A stretch of 64,000 nt of DNA, taken from IMG/VR virus record IMGVR_UViG_3300036982_000556, positions 3,498 through 67,497 of that record. One strand, 5' to 3'. The position numbers and the translations under genes were made by a program. Position 1 is the first letter of the stretch, and each line of letters starts with the position of its first letter. The notes under the pieces are model-generated. The model searched no databases. It was given only the letters and a program-made list of their open reading frames with translations, and had not been told where the DNA came from. Below are positions 1 through 49,093 of the stretch, piece after piece. This DNA is from a virus. Lineage: Duplodnaviria > Caudoviricetes.

Positions 1-803
1 CCCTTGGATCTTGAGTTGACGCTTGGATCGTTTCGGGAGTGACCCGGACGAACTCCGCTTATCTCATCAAGATCCAATCCTTGTATCACTTGCGTGATAG
101 CGATGTGTGCGGGTTTCCCACCCGCTTAGTCCAACTCAACGCTGACTACGCACACGGTATTTCTCACCCCGTGGGGAAATCTATGGGTTCTAATTCCGAC
201 TGTGTTGATGTCGGCCCTTTAGGACTAGAAGAAGCCTAAGCAGTCTGCCCGCCGCTATGGGGGTCGGCTTTTCACCGGCTCGCCGCTAACTTCGCGGTGG
301 TTATGTGGAGTTGATTCCAGCCTTGCCGGACTCCGGGGCATTGAATGCCTTATAGGTTGTTCACGCTCCGGGTAATTAGTCCGTTTGATTAGCGTAGGGC
401 GGTATGGCTCGGTGTCAGCTAAAGGCTCCAGCGTTTACCACCTTTGAGGTTTTGACCCGCAGCGTGAAGGATACGATCCTCCAGCCCCGGAACCCGACTC
501 GGGTCGAATACATGGTGTTGCGATTGCTGTTCAGATACCTAACTCAGGTTCCTACTGCCAACCTCCGCTGCCGACAGTTTCCGACTTGCGGACATCTGCT
601 GAACTTTGGTTGGTGCTGCTAACTGCGTGAGCAACCTACAAGGCGCTCATTGCTTTCTTGAGGGCTAAGAGTCTGTTGAAGGTTTGTCACGTTGTTGCCG
701 GTTTGGAATGTCCCGTTCTTTGCGTGGGGGCCTTGCTGATCTCTTAGCCGCTCAAGCTTGTCTCTGTTTTCAAGTTGCTGTTGTGAGGTTGTTGCCCCCC
801 CAC
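1..803 (-). ncRNA. Candidate large structured ncRNA A (runs off the window edge)
   Basis: Downstream of the promoter at 803-872, no convincing ORF. Hairpins include tatcac-GCAA-gtgata (84-99), gcgggt/acccgc (109-125) and ggatcttga/tcaagatcc (6-14/64-72). Confidence 0.55.
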
Positions 804-872
804 ACACAAGATAGTAGTCGATGCGACTACAGTCCGCAAGTCGAAACAGAAGATTGTTTGATATTTCTTTTG
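803..872 (-). promoter_or_regulatory. Repeated phage promoter element
   Basis: AAAAGAAATATC...GACTTGCGG-17-TACTAT with spacer palindrome GTAGTCGCATCGACTAC. Confidence 0.7.
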
Positions 873-1423
873 GTTGGTCAGTGGAACCGATGTTCTGAAT
901 AAGAGCTGCAAGTTTCTATCCCTGTGACGCAACATCGGGCTGCCTTGCTCCCCGACCGAATACGCTTCGGTGATTACGCTCTTGACGACGCTTTCACTTG
1001 ACTCTGTGTGCCTGTCTGTCTCCAGACGATTCCACTGACCAACCACTCAAGTTGCTGCGGAGGTGCCGTACTAGGGATGTGTTGGGAGAGCAAGGCTTAC
1101 GTCTTTCGACTACTTGGTCACCTCAATCGTCTTGGGTCCGATACCGCAAGTTTCAACTTGAGTCATTCTAGTTACTGTTGAGGAAGCCGTACTGAGGATG
1201 TCTTAGGAGAGGAAGGCTTACACCCGGAGGCTACTTCATGCACTTCAATCGTCTTCTGGTATCAAACAGAATCTAACTAGCACTCGCTCTTTCTGTTGCT
1301 GAGTGTGCAACCGTCACATTTCCTTTTAGGTGGTGTGTCACCCGGAACCCGCTACACGCTTTGTGCGTCTTGCTGCGATTCGCCCCCGGTTGTGTCTCCG
1401 GTTCGTACTGCTCACTTCCTGAT
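872..1423 (-). ncRNA. Candidate structured ncRNA B with tandem ~120-nt domains
   Basis: Follows the promoter at 1425-1481. Has a 15-bp inverted repeat (872-886/1030-1044) and two homologous domains with GAAA and UCCG tetraloops at the same position. Confidence 0.65.
1046..1280 (-). repeat. Tandem imperfect direct repeat, period ~120 nt
   Basis: AAGACGATTGA.GTG...AAGTA[stem-loop]GTAAGCCTT.CTCTCC.AA.ACATCC..AGTACGGC occurs twice. Confidence 0.9.
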
Positions 1424-1424
1424 A

Positions 1425-1481
1425 TAAAGACCGTATCACGATCTACTACAGAAGCACAACCCCAAATAGGATATTTCTTTG
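1425..1481 (-). promoter_or_regulatory. Repeated phage promoter element
   Basis: AAAGAAATATC...GTAGTAGATCGTGA-TACGGT. Confidence 0.6.
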
Positions 1482-1545
1482 TGACACTTGTCACACGGCA
1501 AATCAGAACATGTGTTCGGTCGGCCCAGTGTGGCGGCGCTGCCCG

Positions 1546-3156
1546 TCACTTCTTCTTCCCCCGTTCCTCTTTCGCCTTCGCCAAACGGTACTCAGCAATC
1601 TCCGAAACCCAACGCTCGTTCCGGTCGATCCCCACAAACCCCATGCCCTCCTCAACAGCCGCAACACCCGTCGTCCCCGAACCACAGAACGGATCAAGCA
1701 CAACACCGCCCGGAGGAGTCACCAACCTGACAAGCCACTTCATCAACTCAACAGGGCGGACACGAGGATGATCGTTCTTCACGCCGAGAGGCAAACCAAC
1801 ATTGCGTTCAGCTTGCCTCGCAGGAGGAGTCACAAAGAACCGTGCGACATCACCAATCTCCTCCGCCGCTTCCTCATCAACAACAACCGTTGCGGGCCAC
1901 CGACCCAAGGTCGTTTTGCCAGTCACGACACGAGTCTTAGAAACCTCAGCACCATGACCACCCGCAATAGAATCCGAGGTGTTCCGATAAGAAGCCATCG
2001 CATCACGCTCACCTGACTCCACACGGCAAGCGTCAATGTTCATCGCACCTGTACCCCACTTCATCACAGACTCCGCAGCACTGCCCTTGTGAGGCTTCAC
2101 ACGGAACAACAGGATCGGTTTCCACGCAGGCTTCAACGCAGTAGACCACCCGTACCACGGGTTGTCCTCACCATGATTCTCAAGCCACGACTCGCGTTGC
2201 TCATCAGTCATACCGCTGATCTGCTTGAAGTACGGGTCGCCATCACCGCCAGACCTACGGTCCACCTGCATCCCAATATCTATCCCCGTTGGCATACCCG
2301 TCCCGAATAGCCACATCAACGTGTCACGCAACTCCAAGCCACCGTCCTCAGCGGCCACAGCAACCTTGTGCCAAGTCGTAGTCCCCGCTAACACAGCAAC
2401 ATAGCCGCCGGGTTTTACAACACGTTTGATCTCAGACCAGAAGTCAGGACCGGGAACCCACCTCCACCAATTATCACCAAGGTCAGCTTCGACCATCCGC
2501 TCACCCGCAGGTTTGATCCCGCCAAGAGGATCAGTCACACAAGAATCGAACGTGTTATCGGCATACTCAGCCAACAGTTCTAAACAGTTCCCGACAAACA
2601 ACTCAGACGTTGCACCCGGAGTAACACCTTCAACCTTCGAGACTGTCATCTCCTGCTCAGGAACTTCGACTTCTTTCACCTCAACAGGTTTCTTTGTCTC
2701 TGCCGATTCTTCTAACAACGCTCCCGCTGAAGCTGAAGCAAGTTGGAGTAACGCAGTGATCTCATCACCGGCGAACCCCGCATCAAGAAGCAACGAGTTA
2801 TCTGTTTCAGATACCTCAGCTAGAAGGGAAGCCAACTCAGCGTTGTCGTACTTCCCGTTATCGTGAGTCCGGTTGTCGGCAAGTGAACGGGCCACCGCAG
2901 TTTCCCGGTCGTCGTCCGTATACAGCACAGCGATCTCAGTCCACCCGAGTTGGATCGCAGCCTTATGGGTGTGGTTGCCAATCAGGATCTCCCCCGTGGC
3001 CTGCTGAACGACTATCGGCCTGTGCTGACCGAACCGTTCCAACGACTTCGCAACAGAGTCAACATCACCCCTGCGAGGGTTGCCCTTCATCTGCTGAACG
3101 TCCCCTATGGGGACAACCAGTGGCCTTAGACCGTCAAGGATATTAGAAGTCATCAC
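1546..3156 (-). CDS. ParB-like nuclease domain fused to an N4/N6 DNA methyltransferase
   Basis: N-terminal GNPRRGD...IVV...GNHT...LADNRT; VTDP catalytic-like motif; VLDPFCGSGTT SAM-binding motif. Confidence 0.85.
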   Translation of the reverse strand: MMTSNILDGLRPLVVPIGDVQQMKGNPRRGDVDSVAKSLERFGQHRPIVVQQATGEILIGNHTHKAAIQLGWTEIAVLYTDDDRETAVARSLADNRTHDNGKYDNAELASLLAEVSETDNSLLLDAGFAGDEITALLQLASASAGALLEESAETKKPVEVKEVEVPEQEMTVSKVEGVTPGATSELFVGNCLELLAEYADNTFDSCVTDPLGGIKPAGERMVEADLGDNWWRWVPGPDFWSEIKRVVKPGGYVAVLAGTTTWHKVAVAAEDGGLELRDTLMWLFGTGMPTGIDIGMQVDRRSGGDGDPYFKQISGMTDEQRESWLENHGEDNPWYGWSTALKPAWKPILLFRVKPHKGSAAESVMKWGTGAMNIDACRVESGERDAMASYRNTSDSIAGGHGAEVSKTRVVTGKTTLGRWPATVVVDEEAAEEIGDVARFFVTPPARQAERNVGLPLGVKNDHPRVRPVELMKWLVRLVTPPGGVVLDPFCGSGTTGVAAVEEGMGFVGIDRNERWVSEIAEYRLAKAKEERGKKK

Positions 3157-7705: not shown

Positions 7706-7775
7706 AAAAAGAAATCTAAAGAATCTTGATTATTGACTTGACATGTGTAGTCGCATCGACTATCTTTATGGGGGT
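7706..7775 (+). promoter_or_regulatory. Repeated promoter, ncRNA-associated subtype
   Basis: TTGACA-17-TATCTT, spacer palindrome GTAGTCGCATCGACTA, then ATGGGGGTAAGG. Confidence 0.8.
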
Positions 7776-8268
7776 AAGGCAATACAACCTAAAGAACCGG
7801 ACAAAGCAACAGCTCGGGGAACACGGCGGTTAGGGTCCGCACACCAAAGACTCTCAAGTACAAGAATCAAGTTCTTAGATGATGAACTTGGAACCGTAGA
7901 AGTACCGGGCTGATCGCCAAGTGAAGCGCCCTACGGCACACAGCGATGTGCTTATGAAGGTGGTGGATGGATGTTGACATAGCGCGAGTGAATGCGGAGA
8001 ACGGCAAAAGCAATTAGTTCTGAGGTGAAGCGGTGCGTGCGCACAATCCGTGGAGTAGTAAGAACGAAAGCAAGTAGCCGGTCCAAGGGCATCTTCTAAA
8101 AACTTGATTCACACAACAGGCTAAAAGCAGCACAGGGAATATCGCCTGAAACAAAGTCCCGCCGCTGAACGAATCTTCCGGTGTTCCAAGGGTTGTAGAC
8201 CTCGGGTGACAGAAGATAGGAACAAAGGAACCCTCTGTGCAGTCAACCGACGGCAGAGGGTTTCTTTG
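7772..8268 (+). ncRNA. Candidate structured ncRNA C (~500 nt)
   Basis: No ORF of 60 aa or more. 5'/3' pairings tacaacct/gggttgta and ggaacacgg/ccggtgttcc; bounded by promoter and terminator. Confidence 0.65.
8225..8268 (+). terminator. Bidirectional intrinsic terminator between ncRNA C and terL
   Basis: gaaccctctg/cagagggtttc stem flanked by A- and T-rich tracts. Confidence 0.75.
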
Positions 8269-12365: not shown

Positions 12366-13250
12366 AGCAACCAACAGCAAGGAGACAAACAAACGCAACA
12401 TCAAAACCAAACAGAGAACGACCGCCACCCGAGCCAGACCCAAGGCTCCATCAAGACAGTTCGCTTGAGTCTTGAAAGGGTGAGGCGGCAGTAGCGCACC
12501 ACTACAAATCACGGTGACGGTTCCAGCCGAGGAACAGAAAGTAACGGCAAAGCCTGAGAGACAACAGGCAAACAACTTCAAGGCTTCAAGCCTTGAGCAG
12601 AATGTGGCGGGGTGCAACTCCCCGGCGGGGAAAGACGCAAGAACAGTCGATCAAAGCGTTGGTGGAGGCATCAACGTGAGCAAGGTACATCGGTGCTACG
12701 CAGTGGGAGCCTACACATTCTGGTCAAGCCTTGAAACCTTGAAGTCAGCTAGTCAAGCTGAAAGCGAAGCGTGCGCAATCCTTGGCACTTGAGGTGAAGA
12801 ATCAAACGGCCACCGAGTAACCCATACACCCACGGCTCTTGGAATAGAGTCACGGAACTCATCGCACTCCTCTCCCTCGCAACATATCTAAGGGTTGCGC
12901 ACACTTCGCTTCCAGTCCGACTAGCACAACAAGAACCGCAGAGACATCAGGGCAACCCCTTGCAGGGTTGTAAACCTGTGACAGGTCACGGACCCGGCAA
13001 GAGTCCACTCAAGGCATTGAGGACCACACAGGCGACTGCGCCTGATGTACTGACTGCGGGGAGGCAGATGAAGGGGAGAACGTAACTCTCGGATGTTGTA
13101 CCTGAAGTACCCGATGACTTGCCGTCAGATCAGGGGCCAGCCAACTACAAAACCGGGGCGACAGACCGATACAGAAATGTGATCGGCGCAACCTGTGAAG
13201 GCCGAACAAAGAAACCCTCTCGCTCTAGGGCGGGGGGGCTATTTGTTTTT
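12359..13250 (+). ncRNA. Candidate large structured ncRNA D (~890 nt) inside the lysis cassette
   Basis: An AAGGAG with no following start; many hairpins including ctcaa-GGCA-ttgag and aca-GAAA-tgt; 3' end resembles that of ncRNA C. Confidence 0.6.
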
Positions 13251-46552: not shown

Positions 46553-46920
46553 CGACCCCAACCAGACGGCAACTCACCACGCCCCCGTTGAGCAGCAGTC
46601 TCAACCACATGACACCGATGACACAACACCTCAAGATTCCCCAAGTGATGAAAGCAAGACTCAGTACGCGCACGCCCCGCCAACGGCACAACATGATTCA
46701 CCTCCAACCCAATACCAGAACCACACCGCACACAACGCCCATCCCTGCCCAGCGCGGCGGCGCGCGCGAACTTCCACACATGATTCCGTCTGAACTTCGA
46801 CATGCACAATCCGCTACACCAACGAGTTTGCCGTGGGGTCAACCAGCCGCCACACCAATCACAACCAGACTGAGACACCGCTCTTGGAGCGATCTTGCAC
46901 ACCCCAAGATCAACTCCCAT
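46540..46920 (-). CDS. HNH endonuclease
   Basis: RDGRCVRC...EVNHVVP...HHLGNLEVLCHRCH. Confidence 0.85.
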   Translation of the reverse strand: MGVDLGVCKIAPRAVSQSGCDWCGGWLTPRQTRWCSGLCMSKFRRNHVWKFARAAALGRDGRCVRCGSGIGLEVNHVVPLAGRARTESCFHHLGNLEVLCHRCHVVETAAQRGRGELPSGWGRKRI

Positions 46921-47987
46921 CAGAACAACGACGGCTGTTCAGGTTCAACCATAGGGCTGAGACAATGCGGAGAAGCCCACAAGCGTTCACGATGCTGTTG
47001 CCCCGTACCACTCGCCCCGTACCCACCCATCTCCCCCGTGTGCCACTCATGCTCAGTCCAGCCAAGATCGGCAAGCTCATCATCATGCTCAGACTCATAA
47101 CAAGCAAACACGATCCGGCGCTCAGGGTCAGAACCGTTCTCAACACACCACCGCTTCACATCATGCGCAACCGACAGATCATCAGTCGCGTATAAACCAT
47201 GTTCCCGCTTGGCGGTGTCGGCATATGGCGGATCAAGAAACACTCCAACAGCACCACGACCAGCTCTAACCTCTAGAGTCTTGGAAGCACCATCGGTCAC
47301 GAGGCGCGCCCAGTCGCCGTTCAGGATGCGAACATGGCGGAGTCGCGCTGACAGCCAATCAAACCATCGGAGCAACTCAGGCATCGTCTGAGGGTGAAAC
47401 ACGCCACCGCTAGAAACATCTGCTTCCCAAGTTGAAGGGGCAAGAAGCCCGCGGTCATTAGGCATGTTCACTATGCCTGCACTGACCCCTTGTTGGTCCC
47501 AACCTTCTGTCTTGCGGTCAATCTTCCTGAGCCTGCCGGTGTTGTCTGCGGTCCAAGGGCCTGCACCACCGAACGGGCCGATGCTGATGCAAACGCCCCA
47601 TAGCCACCAGCCTGCCATCTTGGGGTCGCACCATTCAGCAGTGCCACCTAGCTTGGCTGGAAGGCCATCTTCACGCCAGCGCACAAGGGCAATCTGGCGT
47701 GCGTTGCGGTCTGTTTCTGTCACCGGCCACGATGCGTGTTCTGCGGTTGCTTGCGGGTGCCACTGTATTGCCCGCCAAGCGTTCACGATTAGACCATCAA
47801 GGTCATTCACAGTTTCAGCCCGGCCTGTGTTGGCCCGGTGGGGGCGATTCAACAACACTGCTAGAGAACCGGCGAATGGTTCGACGTAATGGGCGACATC
47901 ACCAAGCAGTTCCCAAACCAGCGGTGCAGCTTTCGATTTGCCACCGAACCACGGGAACGGTGCTTTCTGAAGATTCTTGAGTGTCAT
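46920..47987 (-). CDS. DNA adenine methyltransferase (Dam/D12-like), copy 1
   Basis: FPWFGGKS, YVEPFAGS, ETVNDLD, FLDPPY. Confidence 0.9.
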   Translation of the reverse strand: MTLKNLQKAPFPWFGGKSKAAPLVWELLGDVAHYVEPFAGSLAVLLNRPHRANTGRAETVNDLDGLIVNAWRAIQWHPQATAEHASWPVTETDRNARQIALVRWREDGLPAKLGGTAEWCDPKMAGWWLWGVCISIGPFGGAGPWTADNTGRLRKIDRKTEGWDQQGVSAGIVNMPNDRGLLAPSTWEADVSSGGVFHPQTMPELLRWFDWLSARLRHVRILNGDWARLVTDGASKTLEVRAGRGAVGVFLDPPYADTAKREHGLYATDDLSVAHDVKRWCVENGSDPERRIVFACYESEHDDELADLGWTEHEWHTGEMGGYGASGTGQQHRERLWASPHCLSPMVEPEQPSLF

Positions 47988-49093
47988 GCGAACAAGTCCC
48001 CTTGGACGGTGGCGGGTGGTTTGTTATCCGCAGGGTTCAAGCAGTGTGGTGAGGCCCACAACCGTTCCCGATCCTGCTGATGCCCGCTACCGTCTTGGCT
48101 TTGCTGAGAATACCCGCCTTGTAGATAGCCGGTTGTGAACCATTCGTGAGATGTCCACCCGAGGTCGGCTAGTTCGTTGTCATGTTCACCGTCGTAGCCT
48201 GCCAAAACAATCCTACGGTCCGGGTCATCACCGTATTCAGCGCACCACGCTTTGACTTTATGGGCCACCTCAAAATCATCAAACCCGTAGAGTCCTGTAC
48301 TGCGTTCCGCTGTGTCTGCGTAGGGCGGGTCAAGGAAAATACCTGCGTGACCGCCGCCCATGCGGACGTTGAGAGTTTTGGATGCACCGTCAGTCACAAG
48401 CCTCGCCCAATCTCCGTTCAGGATACGAACATGGCGCAACCTAGCGGAGAGCCATTGAAACCAGCGGACCAGTTCGGGCATGGTGTGCGGGTGAAACTCG
48501 TTGCCCGGTTGGTCTGACAGCACGCCGGGTTCACAATTAGACGAACGGTTCACACCTCTGCCATTGCTGAGATGTGGGCGGTCGCGTTTCACACCCGGTT
48601 CACCATACCCTTCAGCTTTGCGGTCGATCTTGACAATCATCCCGTTTTCGTCAGCGGTCCACGGTCCGCCTCTTACGAACGCCCCGATCTGAATGCACAC
48701 GCCCCACAACCACCAACCCGCCATCTTAGGGTCACACCATTCAGCAGAACCACCAAGCTTTGCTACAAGGTTATCTTCACGCCAGCGGGTGAGTGCTAGT
48801 TCTCTAGCCATTTTGTCTAGTTCGCTTACAGGCCACGATGCGTGTTCTGCTGTTTCTTCCGGGTGCCATTGAATCGCTCTCCACGCGTTTACGATCAGGC
48901 CGTCAAGGTCGTTGACAGTTTCAGCCCGACCTGTGTTCACAGGGTGCGGCCTGTTCAACAGCACAGCCAACGAACCGGCGAACGGTTCAACGTAATGTTC
49001 AACATCCCCTAATAGTTCCCACACAAGCGGTGCAGCCTTGGACTTCCCGCCGAACCACGGAAACGGTGCCTTCGACAAATTCTTCAAGGTCAT
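47984..49093 (-). CDS. DNA adenine methyltransferase (Dam/D12-like), copy 2
   Basis: Same motifs; tandem paralog. Confidence 0.9.
   Translation of the reverse strand: MTLKNLSKAPFPWFGGKSKAAPLVWELLGDVEHYVEPFAGSLAVLLNRPHPVNTGRAETVNDLDGLIVNAWRAIQWHPEETAEHASWPVSELDKMARELALTRWREDNLVAKLGGSAEWCDPKMAGWWLWGVCIQIGAFVRGGPWTADENGMIVKIDRKAEGYGEPGVKRDRPHLSNGRGVNRSSNCEPGVLSDQPGNEFHPHTMPELVRWFQWLSARLRHVRILNGDWARLVTDGASKTLNVRMGGGHAGIFLDPPYADTAERSTGLYGFDDFEVAHKVKAWCAEYGDDPDRRIVLAGYDGEHDNELADLGWTSHEWFTTGYLQGGYSQQSQDGSGHQQDRERLWASPHCLNPADNKPPATVQGDLFA

What the first reader, a model, noticed from the sequence alone, without database searches (positions are those of the whole stretch)
1046..1280. Tandem 120-nt RNA domain with compensatory changes and swapped tetraloops (ribozyme/aptamer-like)
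Seen on the minus strand: two copies of AAGACGAUUGA.GUG..AAGUA-[hairpin]-GUAAGCCUU.CUCUCC.AA.ACAUCC..AGUACGGC. The hairpin is gtc-GAAA-gac in one copy and gcc-UCCG-ggt in the other, i.e. GNRA versus UNCG stable loops at the same position. Each copy is closed by a homologous helix with compensatory substitutions: ctcaagttg/caacttgag (1155-1163/1046-1054) and ctagtta/taactag (1274-1280/1168-1174). Invariant unpaired-looking core residues inside a covarying scaffold are the usual signature of ribozymes and aptamers. I could not match the core by eye to hammerhead, twister, pistol, hatchet or HDV consensus. The CUCUCC tract is also anti-Shine-Dalgarno-like.
Basis: partly seen in the sequence, partly recalled or inferred. 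Interest (0 to 1): 0.82.

Follow-up and report, generated by a model that had tools for sequence, protein, structure and literature searches.

The report
Duplicated structured RNA domain in phage
Two tandem copies of a new, roughly 115-nt helix-closed RNA domain sit inside a promoter-driven noncoding RNA of an uncultured lake phage; the RNA structure is well supported but its function is unknown.

Summary
Two units lie on the minus strand, A at 1280-1168 and B at 1162-1046. They align at 81% mean column identity, and the closing helices P1 and P2 differ between the copies by compensatory changes.

Relatives add independent support:
- The apical hairpin swaps between GUC-GAAA-GAC and GCC-UUCG-GGC in unit B, and between UCCG and CUCG loops in unit A.
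- All four loops belong to stable tetraloop classes only when read on the minus strand.
- On a model-fitted alignment, 98.7% of cells pair and 8 of 19 pairs show double changes.

No reading frame is conserved, and no Rfam family matches.

The units belong to a noncoding RNA of about 550 nt: promoter, 5' handle, A, B, then a stable 3' module. The same domain recurs in diverged, non-tandem form in two other noncoding RNAs of this phage clade. One is window 12747-12925. The other two are in L099, one of them inside a 210-nt stem-closed insertion. The domain therefore behaves as a self-contained plug-in module.

Pattern scans of IMG/VR, JGI metagenomes and GTDB genomes found it only in this clade.

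The conserved core (UUGAGGUG, CUCUCC, ACAUCC, AGUACGG) has two mutually exclusive pairing schemes that I could not resolve. Ribozyme or aptamer activity is untested. My best guess is a module that binds a trans-acting factor.

The parts
1418..1480 (-). Promoter of the noncoding RNA that holds the units ('ncRNA B'): the UP-like AAAGAAATATC, a TTGTGC -35-like hexamer, and a TACGGT/TATATC -10-like region
   Evidence: One of about 12 or more copies of a repeated promoter cassette in the window. In relatives, nucleotide conservation begins just downstream of it, while the upstream DNA is unrelated. The generic sigma-70 scan did not call it.
1281..1415 (-). 5' handle of ncRNA B: a multi-hairpin region, GAACCGG-loop-CCGGGGG ... 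GGGUUCC
   Evidence: It is 95-97% identical in six relatives, and the substitutions fall in hairpin loops. A similar motif opens two other candidate noncoding RNAs of the window.
1168..1280 (-). Unit A (113 nt). P1 1280-1274/1174-1168. P2 1269-1265/1179-1175. Purine strand AAGACGAUUGAAGUG 1255-1241. P4/P5 hairpin 1237-1212 with UCCG loop 1228-1225. CUCUCC 1211-1206. Tail ...ACAUCCUCAGUACGGCUUCCUC to 1180.
1163..1167 (-). 5-nt linker AAUGA between the units
   Evidence: invariant in relatives
1046..1162 (-). Unit B (117 nt). P1 1162-1154/1054-1046. P2 1148-1144/1059-1056. Purine strand AAGACGAUUGAGGUG 1133-1119. P4/P5 hairpin with GAAA loop 1107-1104. CUCUCC 1090-1085. CACCUC 1065-1060.
872..1045 (-). 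3' module of ncRNA B. It is closed by a stem of about 19 bp (1045-1027 with 889-871) and is replaced by an unrelated stem-closed module in L004/L006.
   Evidence: The fold is -74 kcal/mol with z -7.2. Inverted repeat I2 is 95% complementary. The alternative module appears. A hairpin loop GGGGAGCAAGGC (953-942) complements GCCUUGCUCUCC of unit B (p about 0.017).
803..870 (-). Next promoter cassette, for the downstream noncoding RNA. Its spacer palindrome plus U-rich tail (830-814) also scores as terminator-like.
12747..12925 (+). Diverged single copy of the same domain ('D type') inside another noncoding RNA. It has a long P1/P2 stem, UUGAGGUG, a 73-nt variable insert, CUCUCCC and ACAUAUCUA.
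   Evidence: It is the positional homologue of L099:10098-10242 and shares its closing stem. Its fold has z -7.0. The core regex hits it. Near-identical copies occur in L277-L279.

Best explanation
The two units are paralogous copies of a previously undescribed structured RNA domain.

They are transcribed on the minus strand as part of a noncoding RNA of about 550 nt in an uncultured phage. That RNA is laid out as promoter, 5' handle, unit A, unit B, then a stem-closed 3' module.

Each unit folds on its own:
- P1 and P2 clamp the ends.
- A strut (P4/P5) is capped by an interchangeable stable tetraloop.
- A conserved core lies between them. It has a purine strand (A)UUGAGGUG and pyrimidine-rich strands CUCUCC(C/U) ... 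ACAUCC..AGUACGG plus CACCUC or CUUC.

The same domain occurs singly, closed by its own stem, inside other noncoding RNAs of the clade. It therefore acts as a context-independent plug-in module rather than a cis-regulatory leader.

My inference, which is not shown, is that the module presents its core to a trans-acting partner, either a protein or a ribosomal component. Duplication would simply double the number of sites. The GAGGUG:CACCUC pairing resembles a Shine-Dalgarno/anti-Shine-Dalgarno duplex.

Shown: repeat, strand, helices P1/P2/P4/P5, noncoding status, modular recurrence, restricted distribution.

Inferred: transcription from the cassette promoter, the core fold, and the function.
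For: The repeat and its helices:
-.

Compensatory hairpin and tetraloop swaps in relatives:
- Unit B changes from GUC-GAAA-GAC to GCC-UUCG-GGC, and unit A from UCCG to CUCG.
- These are GNRA, UNCG or YNMG loops only on the minus strand.
- The G-U pairs (GCC/GGU, and U-G in P2 of unit B) would be A-C mismatches on the plus strand.

Pair counts:
- 98.7% of cells pair, against 31-43% when the partners are slid.
- 8 of 19 pairs show changes on both sides.
- 0 of 500 shuffles reach the observed covariation score.

Noncoding status:
- No ORF of 150 aa or more lies in window 1-1500. ORFs overlapping the units are 57 aa or shorter and the largest on the ncRNA B strand is 100 aa. Reading TGA as Trp or TAG as Gln opens no convincing frame across the units.
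- The ORF overlapping the 5' handle spans a promoter whose upstream DNA is unrelated in relatives, and L005 has a 2-nt indel there.

Modularity:
- L099 carries one unit inside a 210-nt insertion closed by a 15-bp stem. The window lacks this insertion.
- L099 carries another unit in place of the interior of the window's D-type unit, within the same closing stem.
- The 3' module is swapped in L004/L006.
- The orientation of the cassette relative to terL differs among relatives.

The core scheme H1 covaries in three states:
- GAGGUG:CACCUC in unit B.
- GAAGU:GCUUC in unit A.
- CGGUG:CGCCG in L099 unit 2.

There is a precedent for a Shine-Dalgarno/anti-Shine-Dalgarno mimic in a large noncoding RNA that binds ribosomal protein bS21: OLE RNA P6 (PMC12054373).
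Against: - There is no expression data, so transcription is inferred from promoter-like cassettes that the generic sigma-70 scan did not call.
- Each unit's MFE is no better than shuffled sequence (z +1.06 and -1.40), and the fold of the whole noncoding RNA has z -1.3.
- Only five sequence types from closely related phages exist. The covariation is therefore thin, and the alignment used was fitted to the model.
- The core fold is unresolved. H1 and H2 (CGAUUG:UAGUACG, a perfect 8 bp in L099 unit 2) exclude each other, and the energies favour H2 in A and L099 unit 2 but H1 in B and L099 unit 1.
- In the D type, the H1 3' strand lies on the other side of CUCUCCC.
- No partner protein is evident. 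The flanking genes differ between relatives, and the record has no bS21, S1-domain or reverse transcriptase gene.
- The high identity of the cassette across relatives may reflect recent horizontal transfer rather than selection.
Confidence: 0.55

Rival explanations
1. Each unit is a self-cleaving ribozyme of a new class. It would process the multi-module transcript into unit-length pieces.
For: The core is conserved and irregular, set inside covarying helices with an interchangeable peripheral hairpin. The units are tandem and stem-closed, and they are embedded in longer transcripts that lack intrinsic terminators between modules.
Against: No Rfam ribozyme model matches even at E<=10. No recognisable cleavage-site architecture is present. 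Core sequences differ substantially in the D type (AAGACGA and AGUACGG are lost), which is unusual for a catalytic core. No experiment was possible.
Confidence: 0.08
2. The units are ligand-binding aptamers, a tandem riboswitch. They would toggle between the two mutually exclusive core pairings H1 and H2 to control downstream RNA folding or read-through.
For: Two exclusive pairing schemes have split thermodynamic preference. Tandem aptamers are known in other systems (glycine riboswitches, from established knowledge). The window-type 3' module carries segments complementary to unit B.
Against: No ORF or terminator-type expression platform follows. The domain also works as an internal insert in other noncoding RNAs. 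The complementarity with the 3' module is not conserved in the alternative L004-type module and is only marginally significant (p 0.017 in one of six tests; duplex energy p 0.17). No Rfam aptamer matches.
Confidence: 0.08
3. The units are scaffolds that display C/U-rich anti-Shine-Dalgarno-like seeds (CUCUCCC, CACCUCC). These would base-pair with ribosome-binding sites of host or phage mRNAs and repress their translation, as a trans-acting regulatory RNA.
For: CUCUCC(C/U) (CACUCCC in L099 unit 2) is present in all five types and is unpaired in most predicted folds. Phage genes use AAGGAG-type ribosome-binding sites. Regulatory RNAs with multiple C-rich seeds, including tandem ones, are established in bacteria (general knowledge).
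Against: The unit carries its own complementary GAGGUG, so the seed may simply be a helix strand. No extended antisense target exists in the phage record. The conserved ACAUCC..AGUACGG stretch is not explained. The host is unknown.
Confidence: 0.1
4. This is a DNA-level element, such as an origin, a partition or packaging site, or a MITE-like repeat, and not a functional RNA.
For: It lies near one end of the record, next to genes with ParB-N domains. The L099 insertion has 15-bp terminal inverted repeats, like a MITE. The cassette changes place and orientation among relatives.
Against: The loop variants fall in stable RNA tetraloop classes on one strand only. The G-U pairs are strand-specific. 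Promoter cassettes point into the element. The conserved core has no dyad or iteron symmetry.
Confidence: 0.05

Closest known systems
Large orphan structured noncoding RNAs associated with phages and prophages (GOLLD, ROOL)
   Same: It is a promoter-driven, multi-domain noncoding RNA several hundred nt long, encoded by a phage. It has many long-range helices and no known function.
   Different: There is no sequence or structure match to the Rfam models. This RNA is built from swappable stem-closed modules and contains an internal tandem duplication. It is known from about ten contigs of one phage clade only.
OLE RNA P6 region, a Shine-Dalgarno/anti-Shine-Dalgarno duplex mimic bound by ribosomal protein bS21 (PMC12054373)
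   Same: Unit B can pair GAGGUG with CACCUC(C). Its pyrimidine strand is identical to the core of the 16S anti-Shine-Dalgarno sequence, so it forms an intramolecular mimic inside a large noncoding RNA.
   Different: There is no homology to OLE. The mimicry is sequence-exact only in unit B: A and L099 unit 2 keep the helix but change its sequence. Protein binding is untested, and the helix itself competes with another pairing.
phi29 prohead RNA (pRNA)
   Same: It is a phage-encoded functional RNA domain of about 120 nt, closed by pairing of its 5' and 3' ends and encoded near a genome end.
   Different: The Rfam pRNA model does not match. The phage is unrelated to phi29-like phages (terL is 31% identical or less to any cultured phage, and 26% or less over alignments covering 39% or more of the query). 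No loop-loop complementarity for ring formation was seen.
Tandem riboswitch aptamers (for example glycine)
   Same: Two homologous aptamer-sized domains lie head to tail, each with its own closing helix.
   Different: There is no downstream gene or expression platform. No known aptamer model matches. The domain also occurs singly inside other noncoding RNAs.
Type III toxin-antitoxin antitoxin RNA repeats (ToxI-like)
   Same: It is a tandem direct repeat encoding structured RNA, in a phage context.
   Different: These units are about 117 nt rather than about 36 nt, and only 81% identical with covarying stems. No toxin ORF follows.

Membership tests
Known self-cleaving ribozymes (hammerhead, twister, twister-sister, pistol, hatchet, HDV-like, glmS) | Match to the family covariance model (conserved core plus helices) | tested here: not met
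   cmscan against Rfam 15 gave no hit at gathering score over the whole window. At E<=10 over 1-1700 there was none apart from a chance flpD match outside the units. The diverged copies also gave none.
Known self-cleaving ribozymes | Site-specific self-scission | not testable with these tools
   This needs an in vitro transcription and cleavage assay.
Known riboswitch aptamer classes | Match to an aptamer covariance model | tested here: not met
Known riboswitch aptamer classes | Location in a 5' leader, followed by an expression platform and a regulated ORF | tested here: not met
   No ORF follows under tables 11 or 4, or with TAG read as Gln. No intrinsic terminator follows unit B. Single copies sit inside other noncoding RNAs.
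5S rRNA | RF00001 model match and a three-way junction fold of about 120 nt | tested here: not met
   There is no hit at E<=10. The predicted architecture is a single irregular arm and not a three-way junction.
phi29-type pRNA | Rfam pRNA model match | tested here: not met
GOLLD / ROOL large RNAs | Rfam model match | tested here: not met
   whole window at gathering score; E<=10
Type III TA antitoxin repeats | Short (about 34-45 nt), near-identical tandem repeats immediately upstream of an endoribonuclease toxin gene | tested here: not met
   The units are 113 and 117 nt and 81% identical. No ORF follows downstream.
SD-ASD duplex mimic that binds bS21 (as in OLE P6) | An intramolecular helix whose pyrimidine strand matches the 16S anti-Shine-Dalgarno sequence | tested here: inconclusive
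   Unit B has GAGGUG:CACCUC(C). L099 unit 1 and the D type have CACUCC. A and L099 unit 2 change the sequence. The helix competes with H2. The host 16S sequence is unknown.
SD-ASD duplex mimic that binds bS21 | Binding of bS21 or the 30S subunit | not testable with these tools
   This needs an EMSA or pull-down. The phage record itself has no bS21 gene.

The most novel reading that the evidence does not exclude
The domain is a mobile, stem-closed RNA plug-in that mimics the Shine-Dalgarno/anti-Shine-Dalgarno duplex. On this reading, several copies expressed from strong phage promoters would titrate a 30S platform factor such as bS21, or the 30S subunit itself. That would shift translation toward the phage's apparently leaderless mRNAs. 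It would be an RNA-based form of host translation takeover.
Probability: 0.07. Interest if true: 0.85.

Novelty: new member of a known kind. Interest (0 to 1): 0.55.

Why it matters
If transcribed, this is a new family of structured RNA with no counterpart in Rfam. Four features make it worth a follow-up:
- It is duplicated in tandem.
- It is reused as a stem-closed insert in other noncoding RNAs of the same phage clade.
- It sits in a genome that appears to devote several kilobases to promoter-driven noncoding RNAs.
- Module swapping between functional RNAs of this kind is rarely documented.

The conserved purine and pyrimidine strands, which resemble Shine-Dalgarno and anti-Shine-Dalgarno sequences, give a concrete hypothesis to test by binding assays.

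Its value is limited by the very narrow distribution, about ten contigs, by the absence of expression data, and by the unknown host.

Tried and rejected
**Known RNA families**
- Rfam at gathering score and at E<=10 on the window, on L099 and on the D region: nothing.
- tRNA and tmRNA scan: none.
- Tandem Repeats Finder: no call.

**Wider searches for homologues**
- Exact and degenerate pattern scans of IMG/VR, JGI metagenomes and GTDB genomes. Only this phage clade is real. The other hits were chance matches or an unrelated coding gene.
- nhmmer and covariance-model searches of 40 terL-related loci, and of the window with filters off: no further copies.
- blastn against cultured phages: no match.

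**Coding potential**
- ORFs under alternative genetic codes: none convincing.

**Core fold**
- RNAalifold and constrained folding did not settle the core.
- I considered a triple helix (CUCC as third strand on GAGG:CCUC) and a classical pseudoknot combining H1 and H2. I dropped both because the linkers are 0-1 nt and the D type lacks the geometry.
- Loop E/sarcin-ricin, K-turn and tetraloop-receptor readings of the P4/P5 internal loop did not fit their consensus sequences. This comparison was by eye only.

**Targets and long-range pairing**
- Antisense targets of the conserved tracts in the phage record: none (the first attempt timed out).
- Long-range pairing between units and flanking modules: duplex energies are not significant. 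Only one 12-nt complement reaches p about 0.017.

**Partner genes**
- Reverse transcriptase, bS21 or S1-domain genes in the record: none.

**Literature**
- Searches found no description of this RNA.

Full report
**Context**

The window is bases 3498-67497 of a 67.5-kb linear IMG/VR virus record estimated at 83% complete. Its terminase is 31% identical or less to that of any cultured phage, and 26% or less over alignments covering 39% or more of the query. The locus has no DNA match in GenBank phages.

Recognisable genes include several DNA methyltransferases, among them a ParB-N/N6_N4 methylase at 1546-3156(-). Others are DUF932, SSB, a PD-(D/E)XK nuclease, an M15 peptidase and glycosyltransferases. 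The record has no reverse transcriptase, bS21 or S1-domain gene.

**The observation**

On the minus strand, unit A (1280-1168) and unit B (1162-1046) are head-to-tail copies joined by AAUGA.

- They align at 81% mean column identity.
- Repeat spacing is 121-122 nt.
- I found a second covarying helix, P2: CUGUU/AACAG in A and UGCGG/CCGCA in B.
- P4 has a covarying pair: GAAG/CUUC in A and CAAG/CUUG in B.
- P4 leads through a UA/UA step with a bulged G and an AGC bulge to the tetraloop hairpin P5.

**Evidence that it is RNA, and which strand**

Six IMG/VR contigs (L002-L007) carry the same pair of units. Within otherwise invariant sequence, two changes stand out:

- L004 and L006 replace GUC-GAAA-GAC of unit B with GCC-UUCG-GGC.
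- L002, L004, L006 and L007 change the UCCG loop of unit A to CUCG.

GAAA, UUCG, UCCG and CUCG are GNRA, UNCG or YNMG loops only when read on the minus strand. Several pairs are G-U on that strand: GCC/GGU in P5 of unit A, U-G in P2 of unit B, and a C-to-U change in the closing stem of the 3' module in L002. On the plus strand each would be an A-C mismatch.

On an alignment made with model R1, the counts are as follows:

| Measure | Result |
|---|---|
| Cells forming standard pairs | 98.7% |
| Same, with partners slid | 31-43% |
| Pairs changed on both sides | 8 of 19 |
| Shuffles reaching the covariation score | 0 of 500 |

Two caveats apply. The alignment is fitted to the model, and the sequences come from few, closely related lineages.

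**Not coding**

- Window 1-1500 holds no ORF of 150 aa or more. The ORFs that overlap the units are 57 aa or shorter, and the longest in the ncRNA B region is 100 aa.
- Reading TGA as Trp or TAG as Gln opens no convincing frame across the units.
- In the seven-way alignment of the whole locus, conservation starts just after a promoter-like cassette.
- The upstream DNA is unrelated in L002, L005 and L007.
- L005 has a 2-nt indel in the only ORF that overlaps the 5' handle.
- Substitutions sit in loops or are compensatory.

**Architecture of the host RNA**

The units lie in a unit of about 550 nt, laid out as follows:

1. A promoter cassette (about 1480-1418). It is one of at least a dozen copies of an AAAAGAAAT...TTGAC(A/T)-17-TAxxxT element in the window.
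2. A 5' handle (1415-1281).
3. Unit A.
4. Unit B.
5. A 3' module (1045-872). It folds at -74 kcal/mol with z -7.2 and is closed by a stem of about 19 bp.

The next promoter cassette follows directly. Its spacer palindrome and U-rich tail also score as terminator-like.

In L004 and L006 the 3' module is replaced by an unrelated module that is again closed by a long stem. The cassette sits in opposite orientation relative to terL in different relatives.

**The domain recurs outside the tandem pair**

A profile search of loosely matching loci found two diverged copies in L099, whose terL is 97% identical to the window's.

- One (L099:4891-5010) lies in a 210-nt insertion closed by a perfect 15-bp stem. 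The window lacks this insertion at about position 7862.
- The other (L099:10098-10242) occupies the same long closing stem as window 12747-12925.
- That window stretch proves to be a more diverged member ('D type'). It keeps AAUCC, UUGAGGUG, CUCUCCC and ACAUAUCUA, and carries a 73-nt insert (fold z -7.0).
- Three near-identical D-type copies exist in L277-L279.

A loose regex for the shared core hits only these members in 1.18 Mb. The domain is therefore a self-contained, stem-closed module used in at least three different noncoding RNAs, and the tandem arrangement is not essential.

**Distribution**

Exact and gapped pattern scans found nothing outside this clade. They covered IMG/VR, JGI metagenomes and GTDB genomes. 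Searches of 40 terL-related loci with nhmmer and the covariance model found nothing further. Neither did a search of the window with filters off. No Rfam family matches any copy.

**The core is unresolved**

The purine strand UUGAGGUG can pair in two ways (pairs listed).

- **H1.** It pairs with the 3' pyrimidine strand: GAGGUG:CACCUC in B, GAAGU:GCUUC in A, GAG(G)UG:CACUC in L099 unit 1, and CGGUG:CGCCG in L099 unit 2. That gives three compensatory states.
- **H2.** The adjoining CGAUUG pairs with UAGUACG. In L099 unit 2 a U insertion makes this a perfect 8 bp. In L099 unit 1 a C-to-A change weakens it.

H1 and H2 cross with linkers of 0-1 nt, so they exclude each other. Constrained energies favour H2 in A and L099 unit 2, and H1 in B and L099 unit 1. 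In the D type the H1 partner (CACUC) lies on the other side of CUCUCCC.

The units alone are no more stable than shuffled sequence. That fits a core held by non-canonical contacts or by a partner. It also limits what folding can show.

**Function**

Nothing computed here fixes the function.

- *Against a cis-acting riboswitch:* there is no downstream ORF or terminator, and the domain works as an internal insert.
- *Against known ribozymes:* no model matches.
- *Against antisense action within the phage:* no target was found.

The window-type 3' module has a hairpin loop complementary to GCCUUGCUCUCC of unit B (12 nt, p about 0.017). It also has an 8+7-bp match to AGACGAUU..UGACCAA. The alternative module does not conserve this, and duplex energies are not significant.

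My preferred inference is a module that binds a trans-acting factor.

- The H1 helix of unit B is a sequence-exact mimic of a Shine-Dalgarno/anti-Shine-Dalgarno duplex.
- Such a mimic in OLE RNA binds ribosomal protein bS21 (PMC12054373).
- Several promoter cassettes of this phage appear to start leaderless ORFs (ACATGACATCG).

This is a lead, not a result.

**Earlier notes of this scan**

Notes on the same window had already listed a suite of candidate noncoding RNAs, a shared 5' motif, the repeated promoter cassette, and alternative pairings in this RNA. They gave me context and the pointer to the D and C regions. I checked the parts I used. The scan had not seen this sequence in any other genome.

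**Verdict**

This is a real, well-supported structured RNA domain of a new family. It is duplicated here and modular across related phages. Its function is unknown, and the ribozyme or aptamer reading is unproven.

Noticed in passing
window 12572-12745: A segment of about 175 nt just upstream of the D-type unit is present in the window, L277 and L278 but absent from L279 and L099. This is another module-sized indel inside the same noncoding RNA.
   Followed up: partly
L099:4852-5062 (window equivalent about 7862): A 210-nt insertion has perfect 15-bp terminal inverted repeats (GTTCAGCCGATCAAG / CTTGATCGGCTGAAC). It carries one unit and sits inside an otherwise 88-99% identical noncoding region. 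It is MITE-like at the DNA level and stem-closed at the RNA level.
   Followed up: partly
window 4831, 7708, 10011, 18333, 49982, 59458 (+); 56725, 20847, 16601, 1480, 870 (-): A promoter cassette recurs: AAAAGAAAT(A/C)T..TTGAC(A/T)-17-TAxxxT. One subtype ends in TATCTACATGACATCGA, so an ATG lies at the predicted transcript start, which suggests leaderless mRNAs.
   Followed up: partly
window 814-830 (-): The spacer palindrome of the promoter downstream of ncRNA B (GTAGTCGCATCGACTAC followed by TATCTTGTGT) also scores as terminator-like. It may serve both as terminator and as promoter.
   Followed up: no
window 942-953 versus 1085-1096; 1015-1042 versus 1114-1141: The 3' module has two segments complementary to unit B. 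One is GGGGAGCAAGGC in a hairpin loop. The other is UUGGUCA..AAUCGUCU. The 12-nt match has p about 0.017 against shuffles. The alternative L004-type module does not conserve it.
   Followed up: yes
window 1281-1415 (-), 7765-7850 (+), 18395-18480 (+): Three candidate noncoding RNAs share a 5' motif, GAACCGG-loop-CCGGGG(G) ... GGGUUCC. It is clearest in the RNAs at 1415 and 18395.
   Followed up: partly
L242/L245/L246 versus L237/L240/L241: The ncRNA B cassette lies on opposite strands, and at different distances, relative to terL in related phages. The cassette has therefore moved or inverted.
   Followed up: no
window 26789-28405 (+), 46920-49093 (-), 1546-3156 (-), 25342-26847: DNA-modification genes are unusually dense here. 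They include an N6_N4 methylase with an inserted PLP-dependent domain, two adjacent Dam-like methylases, a ParB-N/methylase fusion and two further ParB-N proteins.
   Followed up: no
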